A DNA stretch of 64,000 nt. Origin: Candidatus Marinacidobacterium sp. (GTDB lineage: Bacteria; Acidobacteriota; Vicinamibacteria; Marinacidobacterales; Marinacidobacteraceae). Position numbers and translations under genes: made by a program. The notes beneath the pieces were generated by a model. That model saw nothing but the letters and a program-made list of their open reading frames with translations, did not search any database and was not told the DNA's origin. Positions within the stretch are counted from its first letter, which is position 1; the number at the start of each line of letters is the position of its first letter. Below, piece after piece: positions 12,706-46,169 of this stretch. The stretch is taken from assembly GCA_965220965.1 (NCBI GenBank), contig OZ244852.1:1088001-1152000 (forward strand), read 5' to 3'.

Positions 12706-12807
12706 GACGGCGGCGGGCGACTGGGGTGACTAGCGCGGCGGGCGCGCCGTTTGCTTGTCGGTACGATACTTCGTTCCCGCCGCGAGACCTTCGCAAAACC
12801 CTCCTCC

Positions 12808-29383: not shown

Positions 29384-32300
29384 TCAGACCGGGGGGCTCG
29401 CCCGCGCAACCAGCTCGGAGAGCTTGTAGTTCACGCTTGTAACGCCAAAGTCCGGTTCCTGACTGAAGGGGTGCTTCAGATAAAGGACCTCCTCCCGGCC
29501 ATCCTCGTGAAACAGGACGAGGGCGAGGATGAACTCCCGGGGCTTGTTGAGGGCGGTGAGGATCTCGTTGCGCGTGACGGTCACTGTCTCGGCGGTCGCG
29601 ATCCTCCCCTTGACCTCGATGAAGCGCAGCCTCCTGGTGTTGGGGTTGAAGCTCTCGATGTCGTAACCGAGCTTCTCGGTCTCGCGGTCCACCGGCTCGA
29701 AGCCAAGCTCCCGCTCTGCCGCCATCACCGCGCGACGCGCTCGCGCCGCAGAGGTCTGCGTATCGACTGGCGGTGCTGGTTGGTGCCCGGTTCCGTGGAT
29801 CTCATCCAGAAGACCCCGAGGGACCACGACGAACGCCCCGGTCACTGTGGGAGACGCCGGCGAAATGCGCCTTTGCTCGTCCAACTGCCGTAGCCGGGCC
29901 TCCATGCGCCTCCGAAGCTCGTCCGCCGTCTGCTGCGCCTGGCTTGCGTTCATCCGGGCCACGGGATCGTCGGCGCGCTTTCCGGCTGCGAGTTCCTGGG
30001 CCCGGCGATCCCAATGAGCGATTTCCCGCTCCAGCCGCTTCTTCACCTCGGCGGCCGTCTTCCGGAGAAGCTCCACCCGCGTCTCGGTCACCTCGTTGAA
30101 ATGGTCGGGAACCACGGCCGCGATCGCGTGGTCGCGCGCCCGCTCCTGGAGACTGCTGCCGATCCACTCGAATTCCGGCCGAGACAGGAGCTCGCTGGCG
30201 GCGGGCTCGTCGGGCGCCAGCGGACGAAAGTCGAGGTACGGGGCCGGTCCGAGCCCGCGGATCGAGTCCCGGTCCATTTCGACGGTGACCATCCGCTCGC
30301 TCAGGACCCTCGGCTTGTCACCGTCGACGCGGCCCTCCCGGACTTCGTGCGACAGCGTGACGACGACGCGCGGCTCGGTCCCGTCGTCCAGGTCGTCCAC
30401 CAGCACGGCCCCCTGGCGCAGCACGGGCCCGTACCGCTCCTTCGTCCAACGGACTACGGCGTCGAGCAGCGGATGGCCGGGCGCAAGGAACTCCGCCGAC
30501 GGTTTCCCGTCCACCTGGATGCGACTCTTGTCGAAGGCGACCCGCTCGTAGCGTCGTACGACGGGCTTCTTCCGACCACTCGCGATGGCCTTGCCAACCT
30601 CCCGGATGGCCTGCGGCACATGAGTGATCTGCCAGCGGTCCGTTTCGCGGCCCCGCAACGAGCCGCCGGCGCGGTCCAGGGCATGGCGGAAGAAGGAGCC
30701 AATGAAGTGGGGCTGGAGTCTTCGCGCCTCGGCGCGCTCCATCTCGGCCCGGATGGCCTCGACGCGGGACGTGTCCATGACTTCGCCCGCGAGGGCTCCC
30801 TCCCTGATGAGGCGCCTCAGGTGCGCCGTGTCCACCACGTCGTCGACCACACGTTCCAGATGGAGTCTCGCTTCGGGACGCTCCCCGTACCGGATCGCCT
30901 CGATGAGCAGCTCTCCCAGCGGCTTTCCCTCGAACGCAAGGTTTCCGAGCACGTCGAACACCTGTCCGCCGAGCGTCTGTCGCGCCTGCCCCAGTTTCTC
31001 GAGCAGCCGCTCGTAGACGGCGCCCTCCCGCGTGTCCTTCGCCACCAGATTCCAGAGATGGCAGGTCTCCCGCTGTCCGATCCGGTGGATGCGGCCGAAG
31101 CGCTGCTCCAGCCGGTTGGGGTTCCAGGGCAGGTCGTAGTTGACCATGAGGTGCGCCCGCTGCAGGTTGATGCCTTCCCCGGCGGCGTCGGTCGCGAGCA
31201 GGACCCGCACCTGGGGGTCATGCAGGAACCGCTCCTGGGACTCCCGCCTGGACCGCCGGTCCATCCCGCCATGGATCATCGCGACCGCCTGCGGCCGACC
31301 GAACCGCGTTTCGATGCGGGCCTGAAGCGCGTCCAGGGTCGCACGGTGCTCGGTGAACACAACGAGCTTGCGGGGTGCCGACTCTGACGCTGGCGGAAGC
31401 GCTTCCAGGCCGGCGATCCTCTGCCTGGCGCTCGTTCGCCGTGACGGTCCGCCGCCGAAGAGTTCGTCGAGAAGACCGCGAAGTTCGCTCCATTTCGTGT
31501 CCTTCCCGCTCTGGACCACCTTCTGCGCCCGGAGTTCCAGTTTTCGGAGCGCCGCGATCTCCTGCTGGAGCTCTTCGACGGTCCTCGCGGCCGTCGCCTG
31601 GTCGAGAACCCGCTCCTCCTCGGCCTCGACTTCGTCCTCGGGAAACTCGTCGAGGTCTTCGAGGAAGTCCTCGGCGATATGGCGGATCCGGTCGGGCCGC
31701 CGCGCTTTCCCCCCGCCGCTCTCCAGCTCTTCCCGCTGGGCGTCCAGACGCTCGCGACGCCGGCGGAGCGAAGCGTGGATGGCTTCCGGTGACGAGGCCA
31801 GCCGCCGCTGCAGCACCGTGAGGGCAAACCCGACGGTCCTCCTCCGACCGGAACTACCGACACGGTCAGCGCGGTTGAACTCCTCCCGGACGTAGCTGGT
31901 GACGGCCTCGTAGAGCTCCTTCTCGGCGCCGCTCAGCTCGTAGGGGATCGTGTGGGCGATGCGCTCGGGGAACAGCGGCTTGCTGTCGAACCGGAGGAGC
32001 TTTTCCTTCACCATCCGCCGCATCAGATCGGAGGCGTCCACCCGCCAATTCGCCTCGTTCGCGTGCCGGCCGGGTTTGCCGGCAAAGCGGTCTTCGTCCA
32101 GCAGGCTCATGAAGAGCGAGAAGTTGGCCTCGATCCCCGAGTGGGGTGTCGCCGTCATGAGCAGCAGGTGGCGAGTCTTCTGCGAGAGAAGCCGACCGAG
32201 CTGGAACCGCTTGGTGTACTTGATCTCGTCGCCGTAGTACTGGGCCGACATCTTGTGGGCCTCATCGCAGATCACCAGGTCGTAGCGGCAGTCCCGGGCC

Positions 32301-32953
32301 CTGATCTGGCTCTGGAGCTCCTCGTTGCGGGACAGCATGTCGAGGCGGGCGATCCCGAACGGGGTCTCGAGGAACCAGTTGCCGCTGGCCGCGGTCTCGG
32401 CCTTGTCTTTGGTCAGGATGTCGAACTGGAGCCGGAACTTCTGATCCAGCTCGTCCTGCCACTGCTCCACGAGCGCCCCGGGACACACCACGAGACAGCG
32501 CTCCACATCCCCGCGGGCGATCAGCTCGCGGATGAGGAGGCCCGCCATGATCGTCTTCCCGGCGCCCGGGTCGTCGGCCAGCAGGAAGCGCAGCGGCTGG
32601 CGCGGCAGCATCGCCTCGTAGACGGCGGTGATCTGGTGTGGCAGGGGCTCGACGTCGGACGTCTGGACCGCAAGGCGCGGGTCGTAGAGGTGCGCGAGGT
32701 GGATGCGCTCCGCCTCCGCCGCGAGGCGAAACAGCGCGCCGTCGGCGTCGAACCGAAACGCCGGCTCTTCCGGCGCGACCTCGAGTCGGGACTCGTCGGC
32801 GCGGTAGAGAACCCGCTCGTCGAGGCGGCCACCCTCGTCACGCGTGATCAGGGTGAGCGCGTCGTTTCCGTGCCACGTCAGGCTTTCGACGCGGACCGGC
32901 GCCGACGCCAGACCGAGAACGTGAACCCCGGTCTGGAGATCTTCGAGCTTCAC
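29384..32953 (-). CDS. SNF2-family helicase with C-terminal DUF3883 (NOV) nuclease
   Basis: ADDPGAGKT, DEAH, TATPH, NYDLPWNPNRLEQRFGRIHRIGQ, GYDIES...IEVKGR; probable GTG start at 32953. Confidence 0.92.
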   Translation of the reverse strand: MKLEDLQTGVHVLGLASAPVRVESLTWHGNDALTLITRDEGGRLDERVLYRADESRLEVAPEEPAFRFDADGALFRLAAEAERIHLAHLYDPRLAVQTSDVEPLPHQITAVYEAMLPRQPLRFLLADDPGAGKTIMAGLLIRELIARGDVERCLVVCPGALVEQWQDELDQKFRLQFDILTKDKAETAASGNWFLETPFGIARLDMLSRNEELQSQIRARDCRYDLVICDEAHKMSAQYYGDEIKYTKRFQLGRLLSQKTRHLLLMTATPHSGIEANFSLFMSLLDEDRFAGKPGRHANEANWRVDASDLMRRMVKEKLLRFDSKPLFPERIAHTIPYELSGAEKELYEAVTSYVREEFNRADRVGSSGRRRTVGFALTVLQRRLASSPEAIHASLRRRRERLDAQREELESGGGKARRPDRIRHIAEDFLEDLDEFPEDEVEAEEERVLDQATAARTVEELQQEIAALRKLELRAQKVVQSGKDTKWSELRGLLDELFGGGPSRRTSARQRIAGLEALPPASESAPRKLVVFTEHRATLDALQARIETRFGRPQAVAMIHGGMDRRSRRESQERFLHDPQVRVLLATDAAGEGINLQRAHLMVNYDLPWNPNRLEQRFGRIHRIGQRETCHLWNLVAKDTREGAVYERLLEKLGQARQTLGGQVFDVLGNLAFEGKPLGELLIEAIRYGERPEARLHLERVVDDVVDTAHLRRLIREGALAGEVMDTSRVEAIRAEMERAEARRLQPHFIGSFFRHALDRAGGSLRGRETDRWQITHVPQAIREVGKAIASGRKKPVVRRYERVAFDKSRIQVDGKPSAEFLAPGHPLLDAVVRWTKERYGPVLRQGAVLVDDLDDGTEPRVVVTLSHEVREGRVDGDKPRVLSERMVTVEMDRDSIRGLGPAPYLDFRPLAPDEPAASELLSRPEFEWIGSSLQERARDHAIAAVVPDHFNEVTETRVELLRKTAAEVKKRLEREIAHWDRRAQELAAGKRADDPVARMNASQAQQTADELRRRMEARLRQLDEQRRISPASPTVTGAFVVVPRGLLDEIHGTGHQPAPPVDTQTSAARARRAVMAAERELGFEPVDRETEKLGYDIESFNPNTRRLRFIEVKGRIATAETVTVTRNEILTALNKPREFILALVLFHEDGREEVLYLKHPFSQEPDFGVTSVNYKLSELVARASPPV

Positions 32954-32969
32954 GCCGGTGTTCCGGTGC

Positions 32970-35900
32970 TCATTCGTCCTCGAAGCCGTGTTTGGCGAAG
33001 CGGAGGGACTGGCTGTTCTCCCGGACGATCCTGACGATGTCCTCCGGGAACCCTTCGGACCGCTCGGCCGAGACCTCGAGGGTGACCTGGACATCGGCGC
33101 CGATCTGTCCGGAGAGATGAGCGATGACCTCTTCGGCGACTCTGGCCGCATCAGGTCCGATGCGCCCTGGATCGAGCGCGACCGAGCCGAAGAAGCGCCG
33201 TGACGTCGGGACCGGCGGGGGAGGTATCGGCGGATCCGGCGGGGGCACGGGCCCGGGTTCCCGATCCGCGGCCACCGCCTCCGGCCGCACCAGCACCCCC
33301 GGAGAATCGGGCGTCACCCGGTAGGCCTGCCCAGCGCTCACCCCAACGTAGCGCCCTTCTCCTTCATCGTAGGACTCGGCAAAGCCGAAGGTGTCCCGCT
33401 TCCAGCTCAGGAGCCCGAGCCCCTGCGTGATCGTCTCCGCGAGAACCTCCGGTCCCGCCAGACGGGGGCGCTCCAGGAGCTGCGCGTAGTAGTGGACCAG
33501 CTTCCGGATGGAGACGTGGTCGCCGTCCCAGAGCGGCACGCGGTCCAGATCCCGCCGCAGCAGCGTCGCGCCGTACTGCGTGATGAGGAGTTCTTCCTTC
33601 CGGGCCCGGACTGCAACGCGCTCGACGAGACCGCCCGATCCCTTGAGCCGCAGCGCCTCCCAGGTGACCGGGGCCTGCGGCCCCGTCTTCTTGGGCGCCA
33701 GCAACCAGCAGTAGGTCTCGCGCAACTGCGCCTCCACCCCCCGCTCCGCATCGTCCCGCCGCGCCTCCGCCTGCTTTCGTTGCGACGGCGCGAGATTCAG
33801 GCGGTCGGCGTCGTCAACGACCGAGCGCCACGCCAGAAGCCGACGGACCGCGCCTTCGAGATCCTGACTCCTTGTCTTGTCAGCCGCCAGGAACAGCAGG
33901 GTGTTCCGGAACTCCCGTGGCGCGTTGCCGCGCCATTCCAGGATCTTCTGCGCCTTCCCCACGGCGGGGTCATCCCCCTCTCCCTTCACGCACGGTGTAT
34001 CGGTGGAGAGGATCACGAGTCGGACGCGCGTCTCGTCGGGCACATCCCCCGATTCGCGCGGCGCTGCGTGGATCGCCGCGAAATCCCCACGCCTCTTCGC
34101 CTCCTCGCGGAGGCGTTTCCCGACCTCCTGCGCCACATCGTCGCCCCGGCATTCCTGCGCCCGATCCCGGGCGAGCTTGGTAACCGTCGGCTGGATGTCG
34201 TACCAGTAGCGGGAGCCGTCGGCGTAGAGATACGTCCCGCGTTCCGTGAGGCGGCGCAACGCATCCTCGTAGACCGCGATCCGTTGTCCCGGAATGGCGC
34301 ATCCGAGTCGGATGCGGCGGGCCTCGATCCCCTGCTGGGCCGCTTTCTGCTTCGGCGCCGACCCCAGGAATATGGTGCGGGCGACCTTCCCGGCGGCCCG
34401 CACCCGGCCGAAGTTGGCGTTCGACTTATCGATCTCGAGCGGCAGCGATCGGTCGCCATCCACGTCCTGATCGAGGATCGAGTCCCAGGGATCCTCCAGG
34501 TAACGAAGCAGCTCGGACCGCACCGGCCCCGGGTCCAGAGGGATCATGGACGGCAGGATCAGCGGGCTCTGATCGTTCGATTCCCACAGCGAGTGGATGA
34601 CCGCCGCCATCAGGCGAAGGACGCCCCGGGTGCGCTGGAAGCGGAGCCGCGAGGCCCAGTCTTCGTAAAGCCGGTCAAAGACCTCCGGGTGGATCGGGTA
34701 GGCGCTCTCGATTCGCTCGCGGTACGGGACCTCGGAGCAGGCCCTCGGAAAGTCCGCCCGGCCCTCCCGGTAATACTCGGCGAACCGCCGGGCGGTCTGG
34801 TCCCGGTGCTTGTAGTGACTGCCGGGCATGTTCTCGAACAGCCTCCGCCGGACGATCTCGAAGCCCTCCTCCGATGTCGCTGGCTTCCACGATGAGGCCA
34901 CGCGACCGAGAACATTCCGCAGCTTGTCAAGGGCCTGCCGACCCCGCACTCCGCCGACCTCCTCGTCCATGTCGTCGGAGGAGGCGTGTCCCTCGCTGGA
35001 CGCCGGGAGCGAGATCACGAGCAGGCAGTTCTTCGCCTGCTTGACCGTTTCGGTGAGGGCCTGGGCGAACGAGAACTGCGTCTCGAACGATCCACCGGGA
35101 AGGTCGGAGCGGTCCTGAAGCTGGCGGGCGTAGGCCACCCATTCGTCCACCAGGATCAGGGCCGGCCCGTAACGCTCGAGCAACTTGCCGAGCGCCGCCC
35201 CCGGGTTGGTGGCTTTTTCGTCGTCGGTCCGGATCCGGGCGAAGGCCTCCGGGCCGCCGAGTTGCCAGGCGAGTTCTCCCCAGAGCGTTCGGACGATCAC
35301 GCCGTCGGGCTTTTTCTGCGGGCTACCGGGTGAGATGCGGTTCCCGACGAGAACCACGCGCCGCACGTTCGATGGCAGTTCGGTGATCTCCGCCTTGGAA
35401 AGCAGGTTGTCCACACCGTACAGATCCGAGGCCGGCTTTCCGGAAAAGAGGTGGTAGAGCGCCAGCATCGAGTGGGTCTTGCCCCCACCAAAGTTCGTCT
35501 GGAGGTCGACCACCGGGTCTCCGCCAACCCCGGAGAGCCGGCGCACACCCCCGGTCAGCAAGGCCCGGAGTCCCGCGGTGAGATGGGTTCGCCGGAAAAA
35601 CTGGCCGGGATCGCCGTACTCGGCCCCCACGGCTCCCGCATCGTCATGGACGGCGTGGAGATCCGCCGCGAACTCGGCCTGCTGGTAGGCGCCTCCCCGA
35701 ACATCCTCGTGCGGCGTGATGACGTCCCGCCACGGCTTCAGTCCCTCGACCGGCCCCTCCGCAACGCGTTCCTTCCGCTTCCGGCGGCGATCCGCGTCAC
35801 GCGCCCGTTCCTCGTACCGGAGGCGAAGAAGCTCGTCCTTCATCGGGACCAACTGAGCGGCCTGCGAGGCCGACACCGCCGCCAGGAGTCGCTCGGCGTC

Positions 35901-36242
35901 ATCCAGCGCGCGGAAGGCCTCGTCGCCGGAAAACGTCTGCTGGTGAGCCCAACGGTTCCGCGCCGCCTTCAGAGCGTGGATCAGACTCCGCTCGGCGTTT
36001 CCGAGCGGAAACCGGAAGACCGGATCCCAGAGATCGAGCATCACCCCGAGGAGCGCGGCGGCGTCCCATCCCTCCGGGAACGACTTCGCCTGGTTCCGCG
36101 ACCGCGCCAGCGCGGAAAGCGCGTCCCGGCCGACGCGTTGCTTCTCTATTCCGCTCTGGACCTCCCGCTCGATGAAGGGGGCGAGCCCCTGCTGCAGCAG
36201 GTCGAGCGCCTTCCCGACCTGATCGCGGTTCGTCAGTGCCAC
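32970..36242 (-). CDS. Swt1-like HEPN + DUF499 AAA+ ATPase
   Basis: RNRWAH (RxxxxH), PWRDVITPH, EFAADL, TNFGGGKTHS, YPIHPE, FQRTRGVLRL; GGAGG RBS. Confidence 0.9.
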   Translation of the reverse strand: MALTNRDQVGKALDLLQQGLAPFIEREVQSGIEKQRVGRDALSALARSRNQAKSFPEGWDAAALLGVMLDLWDPVFRFPLGNAERSLIHALKAARNRWAHQQTFSGDEAFRALDDAERLLAAVSASQAAQLVPMKDELLRLRYEERARDADRRRKRKERVAEGPVEGLKPWRDVITPHEDVRGGAYQQAEFAADLHAVHDDAGAVGAEYGDPGQFFRRTHLTAGLRALLTGGVRRLSGVGGDPVVDLQTNFGGGKTHSMLALYHLFSGKPASDLYGVDNLLSKAEITELPSNVRRVVLVGNRISPGSPQKKPDGVIVRTLWGELAWQLGGPEAFARIRTDDEKATNPGAALGKLLERYGPALILVDEWVAYARQLQDRSDLPGGSFETQFSFAQALTETVKQAKNCLLVISLPASSEGHASSDDMDEEVGGVRGRQALDKLRNVLGRVASSWKPATSEEGFEIVRRRLFENMPGSHYKHRDQTARRFAEYYREGRADFPRACSEVPYRERIESAYPIHPEVFDRLYEDWASRLRFQRTRGVLRLMAAVIHSLWESNDQSPLILPSMIPLDPGPVRSELLRYLEDPWDSILDQDVDGDRSLPLEIDKSNANFGRVRAAGKVARTIFLGSAPKQKAAQQGIEARRIRLGCAIPGQRIAVYEDALRRLTERGTYLYADGSRYWYDIQPTVTKLARDRAQECRGDDVAQEVGKRLREEAKRRGDFAAIHAAPRESGDVPDETRVRLVILSTDTPCVKGEGDDPAVGKAQKILEWRGNAPREFRNTLLFLAADKTRSQDLEGAVRRLLAWRSVVDDADRLNLAPSQRKQAEARRDDAERGVEAQLRETYCWLLAPKKTGPQAPVTWEALRLKGSGGLVERVAVRARKEELLITQYGATLLRRDLDRVPLWDGDHVSIRKLVHYYAQLLERPRLAGPEVLAETITQGLGLLSWKRDTFGFAESYDEGEGRYVGVSAGQAYRVTPDSPGVLVRPEAVAADREPGPVPPPDPPIPPPPVPTSRRFFGSVALDPGRIGPDAARVAEEVIAHLSGQIGADVQVTLEVSAERSEGFPEDIVRIVRENSQSLRFAKHGFEDE

Positions 36243-36331
36243 AAGATTTCCTCCATCCGACGTTCGGGACGCGGATGTGAACGGATCTTATGCGGGTCGC
36301 CGGTCAGAACCTGTCACTTGCCGACTCCGCT

Positions 36332-37246
36332 TCACCGCGCGCTGCGGGGCCGCCGTGACGCCTCGAAATCACGGGAAGGATCGAGCAGAGCGGCGATCGC
36401 GCTCCCGATCCGTTCGGCCGCCGCCTCCAGATCCCGGTCGCCCACATGGGTGTAGCGCAGGGTCATCCGCGTCCCGCTGTGCCCGAGCAGGCGGGAGACG
36501 ACGGGGAGGGGCGTTCCCCGCAGCACCGCGTGGCTCGCGAACGTGTGCCTCAGATCGTGCAGGCGAACATCCTCGATGCGGGCGTCACGGCGCACCTTGC
36601 GCCAGAGGGAAAGCTCCGAAGATCGAGGCTGGGACGGATCTCGAAGGCAGGGGAAGACCCAGGGGCTCCCGTTGCGAGGCTGCCTCCGCAGGATGTTCCG
36701 GGCGGGCGCATTCAGAAGCACCGTGCGAGCGCCGGTCTTGCTGTCCGGTAGGTGAAGCATGTCGTCGTCCACGTCGCGGCAGCGCAGATGCACGAGTTCT
36801 CCCTTGCGGCAGCCGGTGAGGAGCAGAAGGCGCAGAATGTCCGCCTGTTGGCCTCCGGACCCTCGGCCCCGATGACGATCTATGGCGCGGTGCAGCCTCC
36901 GGACTTCCGTCCGTGACAGGAATCGGGTCCGGCGGACCTCCGGGTTGCGCACGACTCCGCGCGCCGGATTGCGACGGAGATGCCCGCAGGCCACGGCGTG
37001 ATTCAGGATCTGGCGCAGGATGTCGAGGGTCCGGTTGGCGCCGGCCGGGGCGCTCGCGCTGTAGCGGTCGAACCAGGCATGGACGACGCGCGGCTGGATG
37101 CGTGTCACGCGGCGTCCCCCGAACGTGGGCAGCAGTTGGGTTCGCAGCGCGCTGTCCACCCGCCGGCGGGTTGAGGGCTTCAAGCGCTGGTAGCACTCGG
37201 CCCTCCACCGACCGCTCACGAACTCCGCAAACGTTGGCGCGGTCAA
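36332..37246 (-). CDS. Tyrosine recombinase/integrase (copy 2)
   Basis: TGCRKGE, DSKTG, HDLRH, LLGH, RY; no arm-binding domain. Confidence 0.92.
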   Translation of the reverse strand: MTAPTFAEFVSGRWRAECYQRLKPSTRRRVDSALRTQLLPTFGGRRVTRIQPRVVHAWFDRYSASAPAGANRTLDILRQILNHAVACGHLRRNPARGVVRNPEVRRTRFLSRTEVRRLHRAIDRHRGRGSGGQQADILRLLLLTGCRKGELVHLRCRDVDDDMLHLPDSKTGARTVLLNAPARNILRRQPRNGSPWVFPCLRDPSQPRSSELSLWRKVRRDARIEDVRLHDLRHTFASHAVLRGTPLPVVSRLLGHSGTRMTLRYTHVGDRDLEAAAERIGSAIAALLDPSRDFEASRRPRSAR

Positions 37247-37248
37247 GC

Positions 37249-38136
37249 TCAGCCCCCGAGCGCCCGCCCGACCCGCTCGGAGGCGAGACGAGCCATGGCG
37301 TCGCCGAAGTGGAGGTAGCGGAGCGTCGTCGCCGGGTCGCGGTGGCCGAGCAGTCGGCCGATGGTCAGCACCGTCTCTCCTCGCCGCAACGCAAGGCTGG
37401 CGTAGGTGTGCCGAAGGTCGTGGAGCCGGACGTCCGGGAGGTCAGCCATCCTTCTCAGGCTCCGCCAGTGGCGCGACAGGGTCTCGGAGGGCATCGGCCC
37501 CGAACCCCGGCTCGCCGGGAAGACCCACACGCTGCGCCGAGGCAGCAGGTCCAGGACCGAGCGCGCCGCGCGCGAAAGCCAGACAGTGCGCGGGCCAACC
37601 TTGCTGTCGCTCAGGAACAGACAGTCCTCCCGGTAGTCGGACCACCGGAGCGCCCGGATCTCGCTCTGCCGGCAGCCGGTCAGCAGGAGGAGCCGGACCA
37701 GGGCGGCAGGTAAGGGGATGTTGCTCTGCTCGGCGGCGAGCGTCGCGCCGAGCCGCCGGGTCTCCTCCATCGTCAGGAAGCGTTGCCTGCCCGGTCGCCG
37801 GTAGCGCCGGATCCCGAGGCACGGGTTCGCGCCCCGTCGCCGGTAGCCGTAGATCTCAGCCTGACGAAGGATGACCGACAGGATGGGAAGCGAACGATCG
37901 GCGGCCGCGGGAGTCTTGTGCAGGGCGGAGAACCACCGCTGCACCTCGGCGCGCGTGATGGAGCGCACCGGTCGCTCCCCGAACCAGGGGAGGATCTGGT
38001 TGCGCAAGTAGATCCGGTTCACCGCCAGGGTGCTCGGCTTCCAGGTCCGGCCGTAGCGTTGGAAGACTTCGCTTGCGACGGCATGAAAGCGGTGGCCGCG
38101 CGTCGGAGAGCGGCGTGGTGAGTCGTGTGTCGGCAT
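37249..38136 (-). CDS. Tyrosine recombinase/integrase (copy 1); start uncertain
   Basis: TGCRQSE, DSKVG, HDLRH, LLGH, RY. Confidence 0.9.
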   Translation of the reverse strand: MPTHDSPRRSPTRGHRFHAVASEVFQRYGRTWKPSTLAVNRIYLRNQILPWFGERPVRSITRAEVQRWFSALHKTPAAADRSLPILSVILRQAEIYGYRRRGANPCLGIRRYRRPGRQRFLTMEETRRLGATLAAEQSNIPLPAALVRLLLLTGCRQSEIRALRWSDYREDCLFLSDSKVGPRTVWLSRAARSVLDLLPRRSVWVFPASRGSGPMPSETLSRHWRSLRRMADLPDVRLHDLRHTYASLALRRGETVLTIGRLLGHRDPATTLRYLHFGDAMARLASERVGRALGG

Positions 38137-38262
38137 GTGAGCAAGGATCGCCACAAAGGGGAGCCATTGACGGGAGGTTCGGAGTCACAGGAGGGGCGCC
38201 GCGGAACCTCTTGTCCCGCAAGTCTTTGGGGTGTCCTGGAGGCTCCGATACCCTCTACCCTC

Positions 38263-40902
38263 GTGGCCGCGCGCAAGCTGATCGAGACCTCGCTGCCGCT
38301 GGACGCGATCAACGCTGCGGGCGCTCGCGAGAAGTCCATCCGCCACGGGCACCCTTCTACGCTGCACCTCTGGTGGGCGCGCCGGCCGCTCGCGGCGGCG
38401 CGGGCGGTCCTGTTCGCCCAGATGGTGGACGATCCGGACGAGGAGCGGTTCCCGACCGAGGAAGCGCGGCAGGCGGAGCGTGAGCGCCTGTTCGACATCC
38501 TGCGCCGGCTGGTGCTGTGGGAGAACACCACTAACGAGGAGGTGCTCGAGGAGGCGCGAGAGGAGATCCGCAAGAGCTGGCGGCGCGCGTGCGAGGACAA
38601 CCGCGACCACCCCCGCGCCGCCGAGCTCTTCGACCCGGAGCGCCTCCCCGCGTTCCATGACCCCTTCGCCGGGGGCGGCGCCATCCCGCTGGAAGCCCAG
38701 CGGCTCGGGCTCGAGGCGCACGCCAGCGACCTGAACCCGGTCGCCGTCCTGATCAACAAGGCGCTGATCGAGATCCCGCCGAAGTTCGCCGGGAAGCCGC
38801 CGGTGAACCCGGAGGCGTGCAGCCAGCCGAAGCTCTCGCAGCGGAGCTGGAAGGGAGCGACCGGCCTTGCGGAGGACATCCGCCACTATGGCCAGTGGAT
38901 GCGGGACGAGGCGGAGAAGCGGATCGGACACCTCTACCCGAAGGTCGCGGTCACAACACAGATGGTCGAGGAGCGGCCGGACCTGAAGCGCTACGCGGGT
39001 CGGGAGCTGACGGTCATCGCGTGGCTCTGGGCGCGGACGGTGCGGAGCCCGAACCCAGCGTTCCGGGACGTGGAGGTTCCGCTGGCGTCAAGCTTCGTGC
39101 TTTCGGCGAAGAAGGGGAAGGAGGCGTGGGTGGAGCCGGTCGTGGAGGGGCGCAGCTACCGCTTCCGGGTGCGGACGGGAACGCCTTCGGACGAGGCGAA
39201 GAGGGGCACAAAGTCTGGCGGGAGCGGGAGTTCCTTCCTCTGCCTGTTGTCCGGAGTCCCAATGCTCTTTCCGTATCTGCGATCCGAAGGCAAGGGGGGG
39301 CGCCTGAGGTCCCGCTTGATGGCCGTTGTCGCGGCGGGTGACCGGGAGCGCGTGTATCTGAGCCCCAACCAGGAACAGGTGCGCGCGTCCGTAGCGGCGA
39401 AGCCGGATGTGCTTCCGGAGACAGCTCTTCCGGCTAGAGCCTTGGGCTTTCGCGTTCAGGAATACGGAATGCTCCGATGGTCCGACCTCTTCACCGATCG
39501 TCAGCTCGTTGCGCTGACGACATTCTCCGATCTCGTCGGTGAGGCCATGGATCGCATCCGCCGGGATGCGTCCATAGCGGGGCTCCGGGACGACGGGATT
39601 GCACTGCGGAAGGGCGGCGTTGGCGCGCTCGCGTATGCCGAGGCGGTGGCGGTGTATCTGGCGTTCGCGCTGAGCAAACAAGCCGATTTGGGAAACAGCC
39701 TGTGTCGCTGGGAGCCCCTCGCACAGTGTCCACGTCAGCTCTTTGCACGACAGGCGATTCCGATGGTGTGGGACTTCGCCGAAGGGAATCCGTTGGGGTA
39801 CAGCTCCGGTTCCTGGACGGTTTGCGTTGAGGGGATTGCCAAGGCCTTCACTCGAGCGTTTCGCGTCGCTCGGACAGATGCCGTTGGTGTGGCCCGGCAG
39901 ATGGATGCCCAGTCGCAGGGCCTATCGCGAGGCCGGGTCGTCTCTGCGGATCCACCCTACTACGACAACATCGGCTATGCGGACCTCTCGGATTTCTTCT
40001 ATGTCTGGCTGCGCCGGTCGCTGAGGTCAGTGTGTCCCGAGCTGTTCGCCACCCTGTCAACACCCAAGGCAGACGAGCTCATCGCCACGCCGTATCGACA
40101 CGGCGGCACAGAAGAAGCCGAGACCTTTTTTCTGGAGGGTATGTCGACCTGCCTGCGTCGCATCGCCGTCGATGCACATCCGATGTTCCCGATTTCCGTC
40201 TATTACGCTCGGAAACAGAGTGAGCAGCGGGGTGCCCGGGGAAACAGGACGGGTTGGGAGACATTCCTTGAATCTGTTGTACGTGCCGGTGTTTCCGTAC
40301 ACGGTACGTGGCCCATGCGCACAGAAAACGCGAGTCGAATGACCGGCCAGGGGACGAACGCGCTCGCCTCCAGCATCGTTCTCGTCTGCCGTCGCCGTCC
40401 GGACGATGCCCCGACCGCGTCCCGCCGCGAGTTTGTAACGGCATTGCGCCGGAAACTTCCCGTCTCGTTGCGGCTTCTGCGTAGCGGCAACATTGCCCCC
40501 GTAGACCTCGCCCAGGCTGCTATCGGTCGCGGGATGGCGATATACACCCGTTACGCCCAAGTGCTTGATGCATCCGGAACTCCGGTCCCGGTGCGGGACG
40601 CTCTGGCGTTGATCGACCAGGTCCGCATTGAGGAACTCACACGAGCGGAAGGAGACTTCGACAAGGAGAGCCGCTGGGCTCTCGCCTGGTTCGACAGTCA
40701 CGGGTTCGCCGAGGGGCCCTTCGGCGAGGCGGAGACGCTCTCGACGGCCACGAACACAAGCGTGGCAACGATGGCAAGAGTCGGAATCCTCGAATCGCGG
40801 GGAGGTAGTAGCCCCAGAGGAGGCGGTAGCAGAGTTCCCGGTACGCGGGGACCCGCCCGACAGCGCCCTCCGCACAGGGTCGGGGTGCCGTCCATCACCT
40901 GA
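38263..40902 (+). CDS. DUF1156 adenine DNA methyltransferase, copy A (tail frameshifted after ~40805)
   Basis: [33 protein letters not shown]; the conserved tail continues in other frames to 41110. Confidence 0.88.
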   Translation: MAARKLIETSLPLDAINAAGAREKSIRHGHPSTLHLWWARRPLAAARAVLFAQMVDDPDEERFPTEEARQAERERLFDILRRLVLWENTTNEEVLEEAREEIRKSWRRACEDNRDHPRAAELFDPERLPAFHDPFAGGGAIPLEAQRLGLEAHASDLNPVAVLINKALIEIPPKFAGKPPVNPEACSQPKLSQRSWKGATGLAEDIRHYGQWMRDEAEKRIGHLYPKVAVTTQMVEERPDLKRYAGRELTVIAWLWARTVRSPNPAFRDVEVPLASSFVLSAKKGKEAWVEPVVEGRSYRFRVRTGTPSDEAKRGTKSGGSGSSFLCLLSGVPMLFPYLRSEGKGGRLRSRLMAVVAAGDRERVYLSPNQEQVRASVAAKPDVLPETALPARALGFRVQEYGMLRWSDLFTDRQLVALTTFSDLVGEAMDRIRRDASIAGLRDDGIALRKGGVGALAYAEAVAVYLAFALSKQADLGNSLCRWEPLAQCPRQLFARQAIPMVWDFAEGNPLGYSSGSWTVCVEGIAKAFTRAFRVARTDAVGVARQMDAQSQGLSRGRVVSADPPYYDNIGYADLSDFFYVWLRRSLRSVCPELFATLSTPKADELIATPYRHGGTEEAETFFLEGMSTCLRRIAVDAHPMFPISVYYARKQSEQRGARGNRTGWETFLESVVRAGVSVHGTWPMRTENASRMTGQGTNALASSIVLVCRRRPDDAPTASRREFVTALRRKLPVSLRLLRSGNIAPVDLAQAAIGRGMAIYTRYAQVLDASGTPVPVRDALALIDQVRIEELTRAEGDFDKESRWALAWFDSHGFAEGPFGEAETLSTATNTSVATMARVGILESRGGSSPRGGGSRVPGTRGPARQRPPHRVGVPSIT
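38272..39174 (+). repeat. 903-bp inverted repeat, left arm (partner 42669-43571)
   Basis: Colinear without indels; about 16 of 301 aa differ by hand count; includes a 105/106-bp identical block (38822-38927 vs 42916-43021). Confidence 0.9.
40522..40555 (+). repeat. Exact 34-bp inverted repeat, left copy (ATCGGTCGCGGGATGGCGATATACACCCGTTACG)
   Basis: Reverse complement at 41303-41336. Confidence 0.9.
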
Positions 40903-41110
40903 TCCGGGCGCACGAGTCGGAGGGAGAGGACGGCGCTGCGACACTCGGCAAGAAGCTCGGCGCGAAGGCCGATGCCGCCCGCGAACTCTGCTACCGCCTC
41001 CACTCGGTCGCCGACCGCAAGGGAAGGCCTGCCGAAGCCCTGCGGTACAACACCTCGTCCAGAGTTGGCCGGAGATCCAGAGGCTCATGCGGACGCCAGC
41101 TTGGACGTGA
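40806..41110 (+). pseudogene. Frameshifted C-terminal segment of the DUF1156 methyltransferase
   Basis: EFPVRGDPPD, then AVHHLIRAHES...ARELCYRLHSVADRKG...ALRYN, then LVQSWPEIQR, in alternating frames. Confidence 0.7.
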
Positions 41111-41114
41111 GCCG

Positions 41115-43604
41115 TCACTGTTCGCTTCCTGATGGTGATCGCGCTGCCGGCGTGTCCTCCAGGCCGCCACAGTGCTCCGTCATCGTGGCGAGCGCCCTCA
41201 CGCTGCCAACCGAGGACGCGAGGCCACGAACCTGCGCGCCGACAACGCTGTCTCCAGTGGCTCCGGGTCCCGCTGGTTCCGGGAGACGCCGCTTCAACGG
41301 CCCGTAACGGGTGTATATCGCCATCCCGCGACCGATGGCGGCCTGCGCGAGGTCAACGGGGGCGATGTTCTCGCTCCGCAGAAGCTGTAACGCCTCCGGA
41401 AGCTCCCGGCGCAGACCCGCCAGAAACTCGCGGCGGGGCGCGGTCGGCGCATCGTCCGGACGGCGACGGCAGACGAGCACGATGCTCGATGCGAGAGCAG
41501 CGACATTCTTCTTGAGATTCCCGGTCAGTTCGGTCCGCATGGGCCAAGTGCCGGTCAGCGAGAAGCCAGACTCGATCACCGCCGCCAGGAAGGTCTCCCA
41601 CCCGGTGCTGGTTGTTCCGGCATCGACCTTCGTCTCTGACTGCTTGAAGGCGTAGTAGATCGTGACCGGGTAGTGCGGATGGGATTGCTCAGAGAGCCGG
41701 CGAAGTGCCCGGGTCATGCCCTCCACGAAGAACTGTCGGGCGGCCTCCCGACTACCGTGCCGGTACGGCGTGGCGACGAGTTCGTCGGACTTTGGTGTCG
41801 CCAGCGTGGCGAGGAGGTCAGAGAAAGCTCGTCTCAGCGAGTGGCGAAGCCAAACGTAAAAGAAATCGGAAAGGTCCGCATATCCGATGTTGTCGTAGTA
41901 GGGCGGGTCGGTCGATACGACCGAGTCCCGCAGGGACCGAATCAGCTGCGCGTCGCCTTGTGTGGCCATGCCAGCGATCGCCAGCGGAGCTGCGACGACG
42001 CACTTGATCGGAAATCTGAGTTGCCCTGCCCAGCTACCGGTGGATGAGCTGAATGGATTGGCCTCGCATGAATCCCACACCATGGGCAGCGCTTGGCGAG
42101 CGAAGACCTGTTGGACGTTTTGCCCTTTCCGGTCCCAGAAGGAGAGCGACGAGTGCCGATTGGCCAACCGACCCACTGCCAGACCGAGATACACCGCCAC
42201 CGCCTCGGCATAGGCAAGCGCGCCAGCCCCGCCCTCCCGCAGCGAAACGCCATCGTCCGGGAGCTCCGCTGCCGCCGCATTCCCGCGGATGCGATCTATC
42301 GCCTCGCCGACGAGATCGGAAAACGTCGTCAAGGCTTGGAGTTGGCGCGAGGTGAAGAGATCTCGCCACTCCACGAAGCCGTAGGGCACACAAGTGCCCC
42401 CCGTGAGCCGCGGTGGCACGAGCCCCTGTGGACGCCATGCCGGCTCTGTCAATCGTGGCTCTGATTCGTGTGGCGGCGAGGGATCGAGGTAGATACGTTC
42501 GCGCTCTCCCTCGGCTACTACAGCTAGCAGGCGGGCACCCATCCGCTTGGCCTGCCCCTCCGCCTTGATGTAGTCGCTGCGGATCGGCGAGGCCGACATC
42601 AGGCACCGGAAGTTCGCTCCTCGCGACAGCTTGGTGCCCTTCCTGGCGTCTTCCGGCGAGGCTCCCCGCCGCACCCGGAACCGGTAACTCCGTCCGTCGA
42701 TCACCGGCTCGACCCACGCCTCCTTCCCCTTCTTCGCCGAGAGCACGAAGCTCGACGCCAACGGAACCTCCACGTCCCGGAACGCCGGATTCGGGCTCCG
42801 CACCGTCCGCGCCCAGAGCCAGGCGATGACCGTCAGCTCCCGGCCCGCATAGCGCTTCAGGTCCGGCCGCTCCCCAACCATCTCCGGCGTGATCGCGACC
42901 TTCGGATACAGGTGGCCGATCCGCTTCTCCGCCTCGTCCCGCATCCACTGGCCGTAGTGGCGGATGTCCTCCGCAAGGCCGGTCGCTCCCTTCCAGCTCC
43001 GCTGCGAGAGCTTCGGCTGGCGTCGCGCCTCCGGATTCACTGGCGGCTTCCCGGCGAACTTGGGAGGGATCTCGATCAGCGCCTTGTTGATCAGGACCGC
43101 GACCGGGTTCAGATCGCTGGCGTGCGCCTCGAGCCCGAGCCGCTGGGCCTCCAGCGGGATCGCGCCTCCCCCGGCAAAGGGGTCGTGGAACGCGGGGAGA
43201 CGCTCCGGGTCGAAGAGCTCGGCGGCGCGGGGGTGGTCGCGATTTTCCTCGCAGGCGCGCCTCCAGCTCTTTCGGATCTCCGCGCGGGCCTCCTCGAGCA
43301 CCTCCTCGTTCGTGGTGTTCTCCCAAAGCACCAGCCGGCGCAGGATGTCGAACAGGCGCTCCCGCTCCGCCTGCCGCGCTTCCTCCCTCGGGAACCGCTC
43401 CTCGTCCGGATCGTCCACCATCTGGGCGAACAGGACCGCCCGCGCCGCCGCAAGCGGCCGGCGCGCCCACCAGAGGTGCAGCGTGGAAGGATGCCCGTGG
43501 CGGATGGATTTCTCCCGCGAGGCGGCGGCGTTGACCGCGTCCAGCGGCAGCGCCGCTTCGATCAGCTTGCGACGGTGACTGACAACGTTCCCTGACGGAC
43601 TCAC
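41115..43604 (-). CDS. DUF1156 adenine DNA methyltransferase, copy B (C-terminally truncated after AIYTRY)
   Basis: Same catalytic motifs as copy A with a different central region; GAGGAGG RBS; unrelated sequence after 41303. Confidence 0.88.
41303..41336 (-). repeat. Exact 34-bp inverted repeat, right copy; the point where copy B loses homology
   Basis: Reverse complement of 40522-40555. Confidence 0.9.
42669..43571 (-). repeat. 903-bp inverted repeat, right arm
   Basis: Reverse-complement match to 38272-39174. Confidence 0.9.
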
Positions 43605-43650
43605 GATTCAGGCGCCTCCTCGGAAGCGGGCGGCGCGACAGCGTGACGTG

Positions 43651-43860
43651 TCACGAGCGCAGCTTCCGCAGCAGATCGAGCGTCGTGCCGCTCGTCGGCG
43701 AGCGGAACTTCAGTTGGCGGATCCGCGCGACGATGTCCCGGCGCGCTTCCTCGGTCTCCTGGTTCACCAACGGTTCCCGTTCCTCCTCCAGAGTCCGGCC
43801 GGCGCCGGTGGGAGTGGCCGGGCGACAGCCCTCGATCGGCTCCGCGTCGCGCCCGATCCC
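43651..43860 (-). pseudogene. Possible decayed FitA/Arc-like antitoxin
   Basis: GRTLEEE...ARRDIVARIRQLK...TTLDLLRKLR resembles FitA-type C-termini; N-terminus not recognisable. Confidence 0.3.
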
Positions 43861-44012
43861 ATCCGGAAGGCTGTGAGGTCGTTGTCCGCGGCCCCGCGCA
43901 TCGTCCCTGACCATGATCGCGGAGGATGGGCGGTTCAGCCCCGCGGTGTCAATACGCGCGCGCAACACGGAGCCCAGCGGAGAAACCCCCAAACCGCGGC
44001 GTGGCCGGCAGC

Positions 44013-44252
44013 TCAGGCGTCCTCCTCCATCACCCTGTCGAGCGCGTCGCGGTCGGCTATATCGACGCGCGGCGTCCCGCCGCTCCAGCTTGGCAAGGGC
44101 GGGAGAGGCTTGCGAGCGGCTGCCTGGGCTGGTTCGGACAGGACCAGTCGGACCCCTTCCTCGACGAGGCGTGAGACCGTGACGCCGCGACGCGCGGCCT
44201 CCTCGGTTGGGCGTCGCAGGAGCACCTCGTCCAGTTCGAACGTCGCCTTCAT
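44013..44252 (-). CDS. VapB/CopG-like RHH antitoxin (orphan)
   Basis: MKATFELDEVLLRR...AARRGVTVSRLVEEGVR...VDIADRDAL; TAGGGT -10 box 6 nt upstream. Confidence 0.75.
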   Translation of the reverse strand: MKATFELDEVLLRRPTEEAARRGVTVSRLVEEGVRLVLSEPAQAAARKPLPPLPSWSGGTPRVDIADRDALDRVMEEDA

Positions 44253-44372
44253 GGAGCAACCCTACTCCCGCGCGAGGGAATCAGCAGATCCGGTCCCGCC
44301 CGGTCTGTCTCGGTCCGTCCCGCGCCGCAATGAAGGAAACGCTCCCCCGCTGCGTAGTCCTACAGTAGAACG

Positions 44373-45636: not shown

Positions 45637-45642
45637 GCCGCG

Positions 45643-46131: not shown

Positions 46132-46169
46132 GGGGCGGGGCCCGGGTCCCCGGGGCGGGCTGGCGCGCC

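What the first reader, a model, noticed from the sequence alone, without database searches (positions are those of the whole stretch)
36332..43604. Candidate invertible (phase-variable) DUF1156 methyltransferase locus inside a DUF499/SNF2 restriction-like system
Seen: two DUF1156 methyltransferase genes lie tail-to-tail. Their first ~300 codons form a colinear 903-bp inverted repeat (~95% aa identity by hand count). The central regions differ in patches, e.g. [88 protein letters not shown]. Only one C-terminal segment exists, and two intact tyrosine recombinases sit beside the locus, between it and the DUF499 and SNF2 genes. Known: invertible hsdS loci of type I RM systems (Streptococcus pneumoniae SpnIII/ivr, Mycoplasma pulmonis hsd) switch specificity this way. 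Inference: the variable patches set target specificity, and inversion chooses which variant is full length or co-oriented with DUF499/SNF2. I know of no such switch described for a DUF1156/DUF499 system.
Basis: partly seen in the sequence, partly recalled or inferred. Interest (0 to 1): 0.92.

Follow-up and report, generated by a model that had tools for sequence, protein, structure and literature searches.

The report
Invertible methyltransferase switch in Hma defence
An anti-phage defence locus carries two alternative versions of its DNA methyltransferase gene facing each other around one shared gene end, with two dedicated recombinases beside them, so flipping a 0.75-kb piece of DNA probably decides which version is made whole.

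Summary
The locus is a PADLOC "Hma" system: SNF2 helicase HmaA, DUF499 ATPase HmaC and DUF1156 methylase HmaB. It has two convergent hmaB copies, one C-terminal cassette and two tandem tyrosine recombinases. The copies are 95% identical over the first 300 residues and 55% in the centre. Homology ends at ...[12 protein letters not shown], in an exact 34-nt inverted repeat that flanks the 747-nt cassette. In silico, flipping the cassette swaps full length (955 or 958 aa) and truncated (801 or 798 aa) between the copies, in frame.

Inversion was not shown in this genome, because the only holding run is kept as k=31 contigs that break at the repeat. Its contig differs from the assembly only inside the cassette, and it restores an intact gene.

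Comparative support is strong. At least 18 other genomes in three phyla carry inverted hmaB pairs with the same orthologous recombinase pair. The junction codon is the same wherever both sites were found (11 loci, the window's included). Either copy can be the full one. One chromosome record holds its locus at both ends with the centre inverted.

I found no published description. I rate it a new variant of programmed-inversion methyltransferase switches such as BREX PglX, DISARM and type I hsdS.

The parts
29384..33151 (-). hmaA: SNF2 helicase with C-terminal NOV_C (DUF3883) domain. The real start is probably near residue 67 of the listed ORF.
   Evidence: PADLOC HmaA 1469 bits. Pfam SNF2-rel_dom, Helicase_C, ResIII, NOV_C.
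32970..36242 (-). hmaC: DUF499 AAA+ ATPase with N-terminal Swt1-like HEPN domain.
   Evidence: PADLOC HmaC 1023.6 bits. Pfam DUF499 and HEPN_Swt1.
36332..37246 (-). rec1: tyrosine recombinase, 304 aa.
   Evidence: Pfam Phage_integrase, Phage_int_M, Phage_int_SAM_3. 64-69% identical to the rec1 gene of three other hmaB-pair loci. Below every NCBIfam Xer or integron cut-off.
37249..38154 (-). rec2: tyrosine recombinase, 301 aa. It ends 2 nt before rec1 starts and lies divergent from hmaB copy A.
   Evidence: Pfam Phage_integrase. 60-66% identical to rec2 of three other loci and 43% to rec1. No other member of this recombinase family at E<=1e-10 in the genome.
38263..40555 (+). hmaB allele A body: N-terminus, variable centre and terminal repeat. 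It is joined to the C-terminal cassette in the assembly.
   Evidence: PADLOC HmaB 1313 bits, profile positions 6-860 of 967. The start at 38263 follows the 879-aa database protein.
38272..39213 (.). N-terminal inverted-repeat arm of copy A. Its partner is 42630-43571.
   Evidence: 942 nt, 91%. 84 mismatches, 61 of them at codon position 3.
40360..40555 (.). Terminal inverted-repeat arm L (196 nt, 86%). Its last 34 nt, 40522-40555, are exact and encode ...[11 protein letters not shown]. This is the proposed crossover site.
40556..41302 (+). Invertible C-terminal cassette. It encodes the only HmaB C-terminus on the + strand, with its stop at 41130-41132. Its far end supplies the short nonsense tail of the truncated copy.
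   Evidence: tblastn of full-length homologues. Only one such segment in the genome. The run contig restores the frame. Reciprocal in-frame ORFs after an in-silico flip.
41303..41498 (.). Terminal inverted-repeat arm R. The exact 34 nt are 41303-41336.
41303..43604 (-). hmaB allele B body. It is truncated after ...YTRY in the assembly, and the ORF runs on to 41115 with an unrelated tail.
   Evidence: PADLOC HmaB 1227.5 bits, profile positions 5-782 of 967. Motifs FAGGG and DPPY are present. Full-length relatives reach 68% identity over the centre.
42630..43571 (.). N-terminal inverted-repeat arm of copy B.

Best explanation
This is a programmed-inversion switch inside an Hma (helicase-methylase-ATPase) anti-phage system. 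Two hmaB alleles face each other across a single 747-nt cassette. They are nearly identical in the N-terminal methylase part and in the last ~65 residues before the junction. They differ strongly in two central segments. The cassette encodes the last ~190 residues of HmaB and is bounded by an inverted repeat of 196 nt, whose last 34 nt are exact. The repeat ends precisely after the codons for ...[12 protein letters not shown]. Recombination between the two arms flips the cassette, so that allele A or allele B is completed in frame and the other is left truncated. I attribute the recombination to the adjacent tandem tyrosine recombinases rec2 and rec1. The likely consequence is a heritable, reversible change in the DNA motif that the system methylates and spares. 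This gives the population mixed phage-resistance specificities.

Shown here: the anatomy, the in-frame reciprocity, the recurrence of the module, and both states in relatives. Inferred: that inversion happens in this organism, that rec1/rec2 catalyse it, that the crossover lies in the 34-nt core, and that the variable segments set target specificity.
For: Anatomy and identities:
- Searches give the gene layout, domains and repeats.
- In an in-silico flip with the run-supported cassette, A/B are 955/801 aa as assembled and 798/958 aa when flipped.
- Both copies are kept as coding sequence: 61 of 84 N-terminal mismatches are at codon position 3.
- B's centre has full-length relatives at up to 68% identity, closer than A at 55.5%.

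Recurrence:
- Of 66 loci found with the rec1 alignment, the 19 with rec1 identity >=64% all have rec2 directly upstream of rec1.
- 16 of those 19 hold two inverted HmaB segments, 2 hold one cut by a contig end, and 1 is a 3-kb contig without any.
- Three more such loci lie in the window's own taxonomic family.
- The recombinases form two orthologous groups.
- Homology between the paired copies stops at the same codon in 11 of 11 loci where both sites were found, with a terminal exact run of 29-736 nt.
- The copy divergent from rec2 is the full one in L011, L013, L015, L017, L021, L023. The copy downstream of rec1 is the full one in L009, L010, L014. L075 and L076 have the rec pair in opposite orientation between like flanks.

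Both orientations in one record:
- The two ends of record OZ244037.1 form a 15.3-kb direct terminal redundancy. Its centre, which holds the recombinases and both hmaB 5' parts, is inverted between 1.1-kb repeat arms.

This genome:
- The window differs from the run's contig in 6 clusters, all inside the cassette, against 0 differences in 7,021 flanking bases (P about 8e-7 if placed at random).

Variable segments:
- Within-locus divergence falls in the same two segments, HmaB positions 301-420 and 476-575. At 301-420, 15 of 16 loci show 40-58% identity (L017 83%). At 476-575, 12 of the 14 loci with data show 22-45% (L016 100%, L021 91%).
Against: - No read-level evidence exists for this genome. 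Run X1 is held only as k=31 contigs, which must break at a 34-nt repeat, and the Hi-C run X2 laid 0 reads.
- The 34-nt exact run encodes a nearly invariant peptide. At the local identity of 86%, a terminal exact run of that length has P about 0.006, which is not negligible.
- No experiment shows that HmaB sets specificity. In the one experimental Hma paper (passages read), HmaA alone defended against T4, and phage grown with over-expressed HmaB infected equally well.
- The structure model was too poor to map the variable segments (pLDDT 63.6; no fold hit at E<=0.001).
- Relatives of the recombinase pair at 52-62% identity are multi-copy in Alphaproteobacteria, and 0 of 47 of those loci have an hmaB. 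The pair descends from, or is related to, something mobile.
- The two ends of OZ244037.1 are only 95-98% identical, so a true duplication or a misassembly is not excluded.
Confidence: 0.72

Rival explanations
1. The switch is real, but its output is not a change of specificity. Inversion mainly turns the system on or off or re-wires expression, for example if only one allele is active, or if what matters is which copy is co-oriented with rec2-rec1-hmaC-hmaA. Alternatively the inversions are made by general homologous recombination on the long repeats, not by rec1/rec2.
For: Long, highly similar repeats are available: 942 nt at 91% here and up to 736 nt exact in L016. In the Halomonas study, HmaA defended without HmaB. 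The N-terminal repeat would allow promoter swapping. No methylation data exist.
Against: Both alleles keep the catalytic motifs and show substitution patterns typical of purifying selection. Divergence between the paired copies falls in the same two segments across loci. That pattern is expected for specificity modules, not for an on/off design. A conserved, single-copy, orthologous recombinase pair accompanies the module across three phyla. In this window the only exact repeat at the junction is 34 nt, which is short for RecA-dependent exchange (recalled knowledge).
Confidence: 0.15
2. The arrangement is static. Copy B is a decaying duplicate, and the two recombinases belong to an integrated mobile element in a defence island. 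Nothing inverts.
For: Related recombinase pairs behave like a multi-copy mobile element in Alphaproteobacteria. The Hma paper read nearby integrases (19.1% of loci) as a sign of mobility. No inversion is shown in this genome.
Against: B is an intact 761-codon frame up to the junction. The junction is the same in 11 loci. Either copy can be the full one in relatives, and one record has both orientations. The rec1 clade at >=64% identity is found with hmaB pairs wherever the contig is long enough. The assembly is disturbed only inside the cassette.
Confidence: 0.08
3. The duplication is an assembly artefact that merges two strains' hmaB alleles.
For: The window's cassette sequence is not supported by the run's contig. 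The genome is a 2-contig metagenome-type assembly, 94% complete with 2% contamination.
Against: The run's contigs cover the A-specific part (depth 107.5), the cassette (99.6), the B-specific part (96.4) and both flanks (118 and 92.9) at equal depth, with 0 differences outside the cassette. The same architecture is present in at least 18 other assemblies.
Confidence: 0.03

Closest known systems
BREX type 1 pglX programmed inversions (Lacticaseibacillus rhamnosus, Brevibacterium casei; Milman et al. 2023, PMC9881135, passages read)
   Same: It is a methyltransferase gene of an RM-like, multi-protein anti-phage system. It has a partial inverted second copy, an adjacent recombinase, and constant ends around a variable middle. 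States that leave the protein without its C-terminus occur as part of the cycle.
   Different: The protein family differs: DUF1156 HmaB rather than PglX. There are two tandem tyrosine recombinases instead of one. Here a single inversion of a small C-terminal cassette, or in relatives of the whole 5' block, completes one or the other allele. In L. rhamnosus, two nested inversions are needed to exchange a middle piece.
Type I hsdS invertons (S. pneumoniae SpnIII/ivr with PsrA; survey PMC7672463 seen as a listing only)
   Same: Recombinase-linked inversions between inverted repeats inside coding sequence reassort specificity-determining parts, and they give epigenetic heterogeneity.
   Different: No HsdS, HsdM or HsdR is present. 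The variable parts lie inside the methylase itself. The shared element is a C-terminal domain, not a target-recognition-domain half.
Class 1 DISARM DrmMI and Cj0031-like type IIG loci with programmed inversions (PMC9881135)
   Same: A large methylase lies next to SNF2-type helicases and is targeted by inversions.
   Different: The methylase family and partner set differ (DUF499 ATPase with HEPN). DUF1156 is not mentioned in that paper's main text.
fim switch of E. coli with FimB and FimE (recalled, not checked in a call)
   Same: Two paralogous tyrosine recombinases are encoded in tandem beside the element they invert.
   Different: fimS is a promoter switch of 314 bp with 9-bp repeats. Here the inverted DNA is coding sequence.
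Hma system (Payne et al. 2021, PMC8565338, listing only; Halomonas meridiana study PMC11232893, passages read)
   Same: The same three core proteins are present, with very strong profile matches.
   Different: The published descriptions that I read mention one hmaB. They treat neighbouring integrases as marks of mobility and do not describe duplication, inverted repeats or inversion.

Membership tests
Hma defence system (PADLOC) | HmaA SNF2 helicase, HmaB DUF1156 methylase and HmaC DUF499 ATPase encoded together | tested here: met
   PDLC00659 1469 bits, PDLC00660 1313 and 1227.5 bits, PDLC00662 1023.6 bits. Pfam domains agree.
Hma defence system (PADLOC) | Anti-phage activity | not testable with these tools
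   Shown only for Halomonas HmaA against T4 (PMC11232893).
Programmed gene-altering inversion locus (shufflon-type methylase switch) | Two or more homologous coding segments in inverted orientation, at least one incomplete, that share a constant part | tested here: met
   A and B are convergent. B ends at profile position 782 of 967, and there is a single C-terminal cassette.
Programmed gene-altering inversion locus (shufflon-type methylase switch) | Site-specific recombinase gene(s) adjacent | tested here: met
   rec2 and rec1 are intact, tandem and orthologous across loci.
Programmed gene-altering inversion locus (shufflon-type methylase switch) | Each inversion product keeps an open reading frame | tested here: met
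   A/B are 955/801 aa as assembled and 798/958 aa after the flip.
Programmed gene-altering inversion locus (shufflon-type methylase switch) | Both orientations present in one population (reads) | tested here: inconclusive
   For the window, k=31 contigs cannot resolve a 34-nt repeat, and the only sign is that assembly errors are confined to the cassette. For a homologous locus, the record OZ244037.1 holds both orientations at its two ends.
Type I RM hsdS inverton | HsdS specificity subunit with HsdM/HsdR partners | tested here: not met
   None of the 9 ORFs scanned has a type I S, M or R domain hit.
XerC/XerD, integron integrase and other named tyrosine recombinase equivalogs | Score above the NCBIfam curated cut-off | tested here: not met
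   The best scores are 76.7 and 61.9 bits, against cut-offs of 220-600.

The most novel reading that the evidence does not exclude
Hma systems carry a portable re-targeting module. It consists of a domesticated pair of tyrosine recombinases, related to a multi-copy two-recombinase element of Alphaproteobacteria, that acts on a site embedded in the invariant ...AIGPGMAVYTRY codons of hmaB. This lets any incoming hmaB allele be plugged onto a resident C-terminus. The two hypervariable segments (positions ~301-420 and ~476-575) vary independently between paired alleles. They would act as two half-site readers, which would make HmaB the single specificity subunit for both modification and HmaA/HmaC attack. 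The module has spread across Acidobacteriota, Gemmatimonadota and Pseudomonadota.
Probability: 0.3. Interest if true: 0.75.

Novelty: new variant of a known kind. Interest (0 to 1): 0.62.

Why it matters
Hma is a widespread but mechanistically obscure defence system, and what HmaB does is not known. A conserved inversion switch that exchanges HmaB alleles argues that HmaB determines target specificity. A system can only afford to change its methylase if the same protein also directs restriction. That argument is directly testable.

The finding adds a fourth methylase family to those known to be diversified by programmed inversion. It adds an unusual topology, a flipped C-terminal cassette. It also adds a conserved two-recombinase invertase module whose site lies inside invariant codons.

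It has a practical side. Such loci corrupt assemblies, as seen here in garbled cassette sequence and, in a relative, in untrimmed chromosome ends. Neighbouring "integrases" should therefore not be read automatically as marks of mobile elements.

Tried and rejected
1. Reads. The single holding run X1 is stored as k=31 contigs, which end at the 34-nt repeat and cannot tell orientation. Hi-C run X2 laid 0 reads.

2. Metagenome scan. I scanned metagenome contigs with an unchanged 43-nt B-specific stretch next to the repeat, to look for contigs of the other orientation. It did not complete five times because of a machine fault, so nothing can be concluded from it.

3. The 38-nt inverted repeat inside the cassette (40804-40841 / 40979-41016) was considered as a second switch. 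I rejected it, because one arm lies in the 27-nt patch that the run's contig does not support.

4. Structure. The AlphaFold2 model of homologue P0007, built with a 34-row alignment, was poor: mean pLDDT 63.6, pTM 0.38, and low confidence in the methylase core. Foldseek against the PDB gave 0 hits at E<=0.001, and phmmer against PDB sequences gave nothing better than E=0.02. The variable segments could therefore not be placed on a fold.

5. The promoter and terminator scan of 36000-44900 found 0 promoter-like sites, and terminators at the chance level.

6. I looked for dyad symmetry or wobble-position conservation in the junction site across loci. All nucleotides that are invariant between loci are first or second codon positions of conserved residues. 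No recombinase core could be defined.

8. Complex prediction was not used. Two paralogous tyrosine recombinases would tend to pass by likeness to solved tetramers.


Full report
WHAT IS THERE

The region is a complete Hma defence locus. On the minus strand lie hmaA (29384-33151; SNF2 helicase with NOV_C domain; PADLOC HmaA 1469 bits) and hmaC (32970-36242; DUF499 ATPase with N-terminal Swt1-like HEPN; 1023.6 bits). Two tyrosine recombinase genes follow: rec1 (36332-37246) and rec2 (37249-38154). Next come two HmaB/DUF1156 methylase genes, tail to tail. Copy A lies on the plus strand (ORF 38125-40902, probable start 38263). Copy B lies on the minus strand (41115-43604).

Copy A matches the HmaB profile over positions 6-860 of 967, and copy B over 5-782. 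The whole 3.25-Mb genome holds only these two copies plus one remainder of the C-terminus just after A. It holds no further recombinase of this family at E<=1e-10.

HOW THE TWO COPIES RELATE

BLASTP gives 540/762 identities. The first 300 aligned residues are 94.7% identical. The next ~460 are 55.5% identical.

At the DNA level there are three blocks of inverted homology:
- 38272-39251 / 42595-43571, at 90%;
- a 176-nt block at 81%;
- 39936-40555 / 41303-41922, at 72%. Its last 196 nt are 86% identical and its last 34 nt are exact (40522-40555 / 41303-41336).

Homology stops right after the codons for ...[12 protein letters not shown]. Copy A then continues into family-like C-terminal sequence, and copy B into an unrelated tail. 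The 747 nt between the arms hold the only C-terminal coding segment.

Of the 84 mismatches in the N-terminal repeat, 61 are at codon position 3. Both copies keep the FAGGG and DPPY motifs. B's centre has full-length relatives at up to 68% identity. Of the 238 family proteins that my two searches returned, 210 are closer to B's centre than A's centre is. That sample was chosen by similarity to A or B. B is therefore a maintained allele of a different lineage with a homogenised N-terminus, not a decaying duplicate.

THE ASSEMBLY OF THE CASSETTE

As assembled, A leaves the family frame at 40806 and stops at 40902. The rest of the C-terminus lies in two other frames.

One public run (X1, kept as Logan contigs) holds the locus. 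Seven listed contig pieces cover 7,021 bases of flanks and gene bodies with 0 differences. The piece covering 40526-41332 differs at 21 bases and 6 indels, grouped in 6 clusters, all between 40809 and 41278. If placed at random, all 6 clusters would fall inside the cassette with P about 8e-7.

Applying those differences gives an uninterrupted A of 955 aa from 38263, with a family-typical C-terminus. The frame breaks are therefore not supported by the reads. So is the 38-nt internal inverted repeat (I5), one arm of which lies in the disputed patch.

An otherwise perfect assembly is wrong only between the two 34-nt repeats. That is what one would expect if the consensus there was built from few reads or from reads in conflict, that is, from mixed orientation. 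This is a suggestion, not a demonstration. Contigs built with 31-mers must break at a 34-nt repeat, and indeed the pieces end at 40551 and begin at 41307. They cannot show orientation. The Hi-C run of the same study laid no reads. Depths of the A-specific piece (107.5), the cassette (99.6), the B-specific piece (96.4) and the flanks (118 and 92.9) are alike, so the duplication is not a merger of two strains.

WHAT A FLIP WOULD DO

With the run-supported cassette, the assembled arrangement gives A 955 aa and B 801 aa. With the cassette reverse-complemented, A is 798 aa and B 958 aa. The exchange is reciprocal and in frame, because the exact repeat ends at the same codon phase in both copies.

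THE SAME MODULE ELSEWHERE

A profile search of 401 genomes of the phylum, G000 included, found HmaB in 71. That tally includes two genomes flagged as unpublished, G049 and G024, and nothing else here rests on them. Three further genomes showed a full and a partial copy on opposite strands a few kb apart. In all three, two tyrosine recombinase genes lie between the copies.

The eight recombinases, two each from those three loci and the window, fall into two orthologous groups. Between the window and the three other loci, rec1 is 64-69% identical and rec2 60-66%. Between groups, identity is 38-45%.

A scan of one genome per species with the rec1 alignment returned 66 loci:
- In the 19 loci with rec1 identity >=64%, rec2 always lies directly upstream of rec1.
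- 16 of those 19 hold two HmaB-like segments in inverted orientation. L014 and L015 belong to one chromosome, and L009, L013 and L024 are the three genomes already found.
- 2 of the 19 hold one HmaB segment cut by the contig end.
- 1 of the 19 is a 3-kb contig with none.

By their record titles these are Acidobacteriota, Gemmatimonadota (Longimicrobiales) and Pseudomonadota.

The other 47 loci are Alphaproteobacteria, with rec1 identity 43-62%. None has HmaB. There the pair sits in 2.4-3.4-kb units that are 90-99.6% identical between places in one genome, which looks like a mobile element.

A search of 41 genomes, G000 and its 40 nearest relatives, found more cases. The three that I fetched (G415, G406, G413) have the same module. 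The count is thus at least 18 other genomes. The scan used two peptide patterns only, so this is a lower bound.

THE CONSERVED JUNCTION AND THE TWO STATES

In 11 loci, the window's among them, both junction sites were found by their peptide motif. In all 11 the two copies are identical up to ...Y-T-R-Y/H plus one to a few bases, and unrelated after it. In L020 one single-base difference interrupts the run. The last 50 nt before the junction are 94-100% identical in every one.

In the common head-to-head design the layout is [copy X <-][rec2 -> rec1 ->][copy Y ->]. X is the full copy in L011, L013, L015, L017, L021 and L023. Y is the full copy in L009, L010 and L014. L075 and L076 are from two genera of the window's family. 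They have hmaA-hmaC on the same side, with the recombinase pair in opposite orientations.

The strongest single piece of evidence comes from L014 and L015. They are the first 19.7 kb and the last 19.1 kb of one record, OZ244037.1 (4,095,690 bp, titled a Longimicrobiales MAG chromosome). Positions 1-15274 repeat positions 4080410-4095690 in direct orientation. The exception is the part between two 1.1-kb repeat arms, which are hmaB residues ~420-778 of the two copies. That part is inverted. It holds both hmaB 5' halves and the recombinases. This is the pattern of a circular molecule whose overlapping ends were not merged because the reads at the two ends carried the switch in different states. 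The identity of the two ends is 95-98%, so a true duplication or an assembly error is not excluded.

Other designs also occur:
- A tail-to-tail cassette design like the window's is found in Pseudomonadales locus L020, with 150-nt arms 806 nt apart and one copy broken by an IS110-family insertion.
- A design with only an internal cassette, residues ~233-777, is found in L012, L016 and L019.
- Loci with two complete copies occur in L077, and in L024 where the second copy lacks residues 1-149.

WHERE THE ALLELES DIFFER

I anchored both copies of 16 loci on one full-length homologue and compared them by segment.
- Identity is 75-99% at positions 14-300 in the 14 loci with data there.
- Identity is 79-100% at positions 716-777 in the 14 loci with data there.
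- At positions 301-420 it is 40-58% in 15 of 16 loci (83% in L017).
- At positions 476-575 it is 22-45% in 12 of the 14 loci with data (100% in L016 and 91% in L021).

The two segments vary independently. Only the first differs in L016 and L021, and mainly the second in L017. Both lie between the FAGGG motif and the DPPY motif. A preprint on BREX-related systems (10.1101/2025.10.09.681413, passages read) places the target-recognition insert of these DUF1156 methylases after core strand 2. My own model was too poor to check this. That the segments read DNA sequence is therefore an inference.

MECHANISM PROPOSED

Rec2 and rec1 invert the DNA between the two junction repeats. They may work together on an asymmetric site, as XerC and XerD do, or separately with different directional bias, as FimB and FimE do. 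Both comparisons are recalled, not tested.

In this window, inversion flips the 747-nt cassette and leaves the recombinases and hmaC-hmaA untouched. In most relatives it flips the block that carries both 5' parts and the recombinases. Either way, one allele at a time is completed.

Systems that change their methylase must use the same protein to direct attack, or they would restrict their own DNA. The existence of this switch therefore predicts that HmaB is the specificity subunit of Hma. Additional inversions across the 0.9-kb N-terminal repeat are possible. They would exchange only the 5' ends and promoters.

AGAINST THE PROPOSAL

- Inversion is not shown in this genome.
- The exact 34-mer encodes an almost invariant peptide. 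At the local identity of 86%, a terminal exact run of that length has P about 0.006.
- No wobble-position signal marks a recombinase core.
- The only experimental Hma study found defence by HmaA alone and no effect of HmaB over-expression on T4.
- The recombinase pair has mobile relatives.

LITERATURE

DUF1156 occurs in 5 papers of the searchable library (4 listed), and none deals with inversion. Searches that combined DUF1156, DUF499, HmaA/HmaB and pglX with recombinase, inversion, phase-variable and related terms found no description of this switch.

The Halomonas Hma paper reports integrase genes near 19.1% of hmaA homologues and reads them as mobility. The systematic survey of gene-altering inversions (PMC9881135, passages read) confirms inversions in BREX-1 pglX, DISARM-like and Cj0031-like methylases. 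Its main text does not contain DUF1156.

VERDICT

What is missing is read-level proof in this organism and any test of specificity. I rate it a new variant of a known kind: a programmed-inversion methylase switch in the Hma/DUF1156 family, with a paired-recombinase module and a C-terminal cassette topology.

Noticed in passing
window 40809-41278: The assembly differs from the read-derived contig of run X1 at 21 bases and 6 indels. All lie inside the 747-nt cassette, and none lie in 7,021 flanking bases. The frame breaks in hmaB copy A are assembly errors or a minor variant.
   Followed up: yes
L026-L072 (Alphaproteobacteria and Defluviicoccus MAG records): Relatives of the rec2-rec1 pair (rec1 43-62% identical) occur many times per genome. 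They sit in 2.4-3.4-kb units that are 90-99.6% identical to each other, and none is near an hmaB. This is probably a mobile element built on two tyrosine recombinases, and possibly the ancestor of the hmaB-linked pair.
   Followed up: partly
L014 and L015 (both ends of OZ244037.1): A record labelled as a chromosome keeps a 15.3-kb terminal redundancy. The invertible centre differs in orientation between the two ends, so the ends were evidently not merged.
   Followed up: yes
G410 and G405 (window's taxonomic family): HmaB is strongly expanded in some relatives. G410 has 16 matches including 8 near-full-length copies, and G405 has 8 matches. Several look like genes split near residue 455-460.
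   Followed up: no
L020 14517-15839: An IS110-family transposase gene interrupts one hmaB copy just upstream of its terminal repeat, in the Pseudomonadales locus that shares the window's tail-to-tail design.
   Followed up: partly
window 45009-47927 (+) and L004 16585-17793 (-): A gene with Schlafen AlbA_2 and HATPase_c_4 domains lies close to the locus both in the window and in a relative. The window's 972-aa version has weak PADLOC matches to Argonaute-associated proteins. The 375-aa ORF between it and hmaB copy B (43648-44775) has no family hit.
   Followed up: no
L006/L024 9259-12153: In this relative a PIN-domain gene and a Phd/YefM-type antitoxin domain lie between the two hmaB copies, next to the recombinases. 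The antitoxin domain is read in one ORF with rec1.
   Followed up: no
L073 and L074 (G401, same genus as the window): In a fragmented assembly of a congener, an hmaB ending at the same junction (residue 780) lies directly upstream of hmaC-hmaA with no recombinases between them. The contig breaks inside hmaB. A second complete genome of the genus (G402) has no HmaB match at all.
   Followed up: partly
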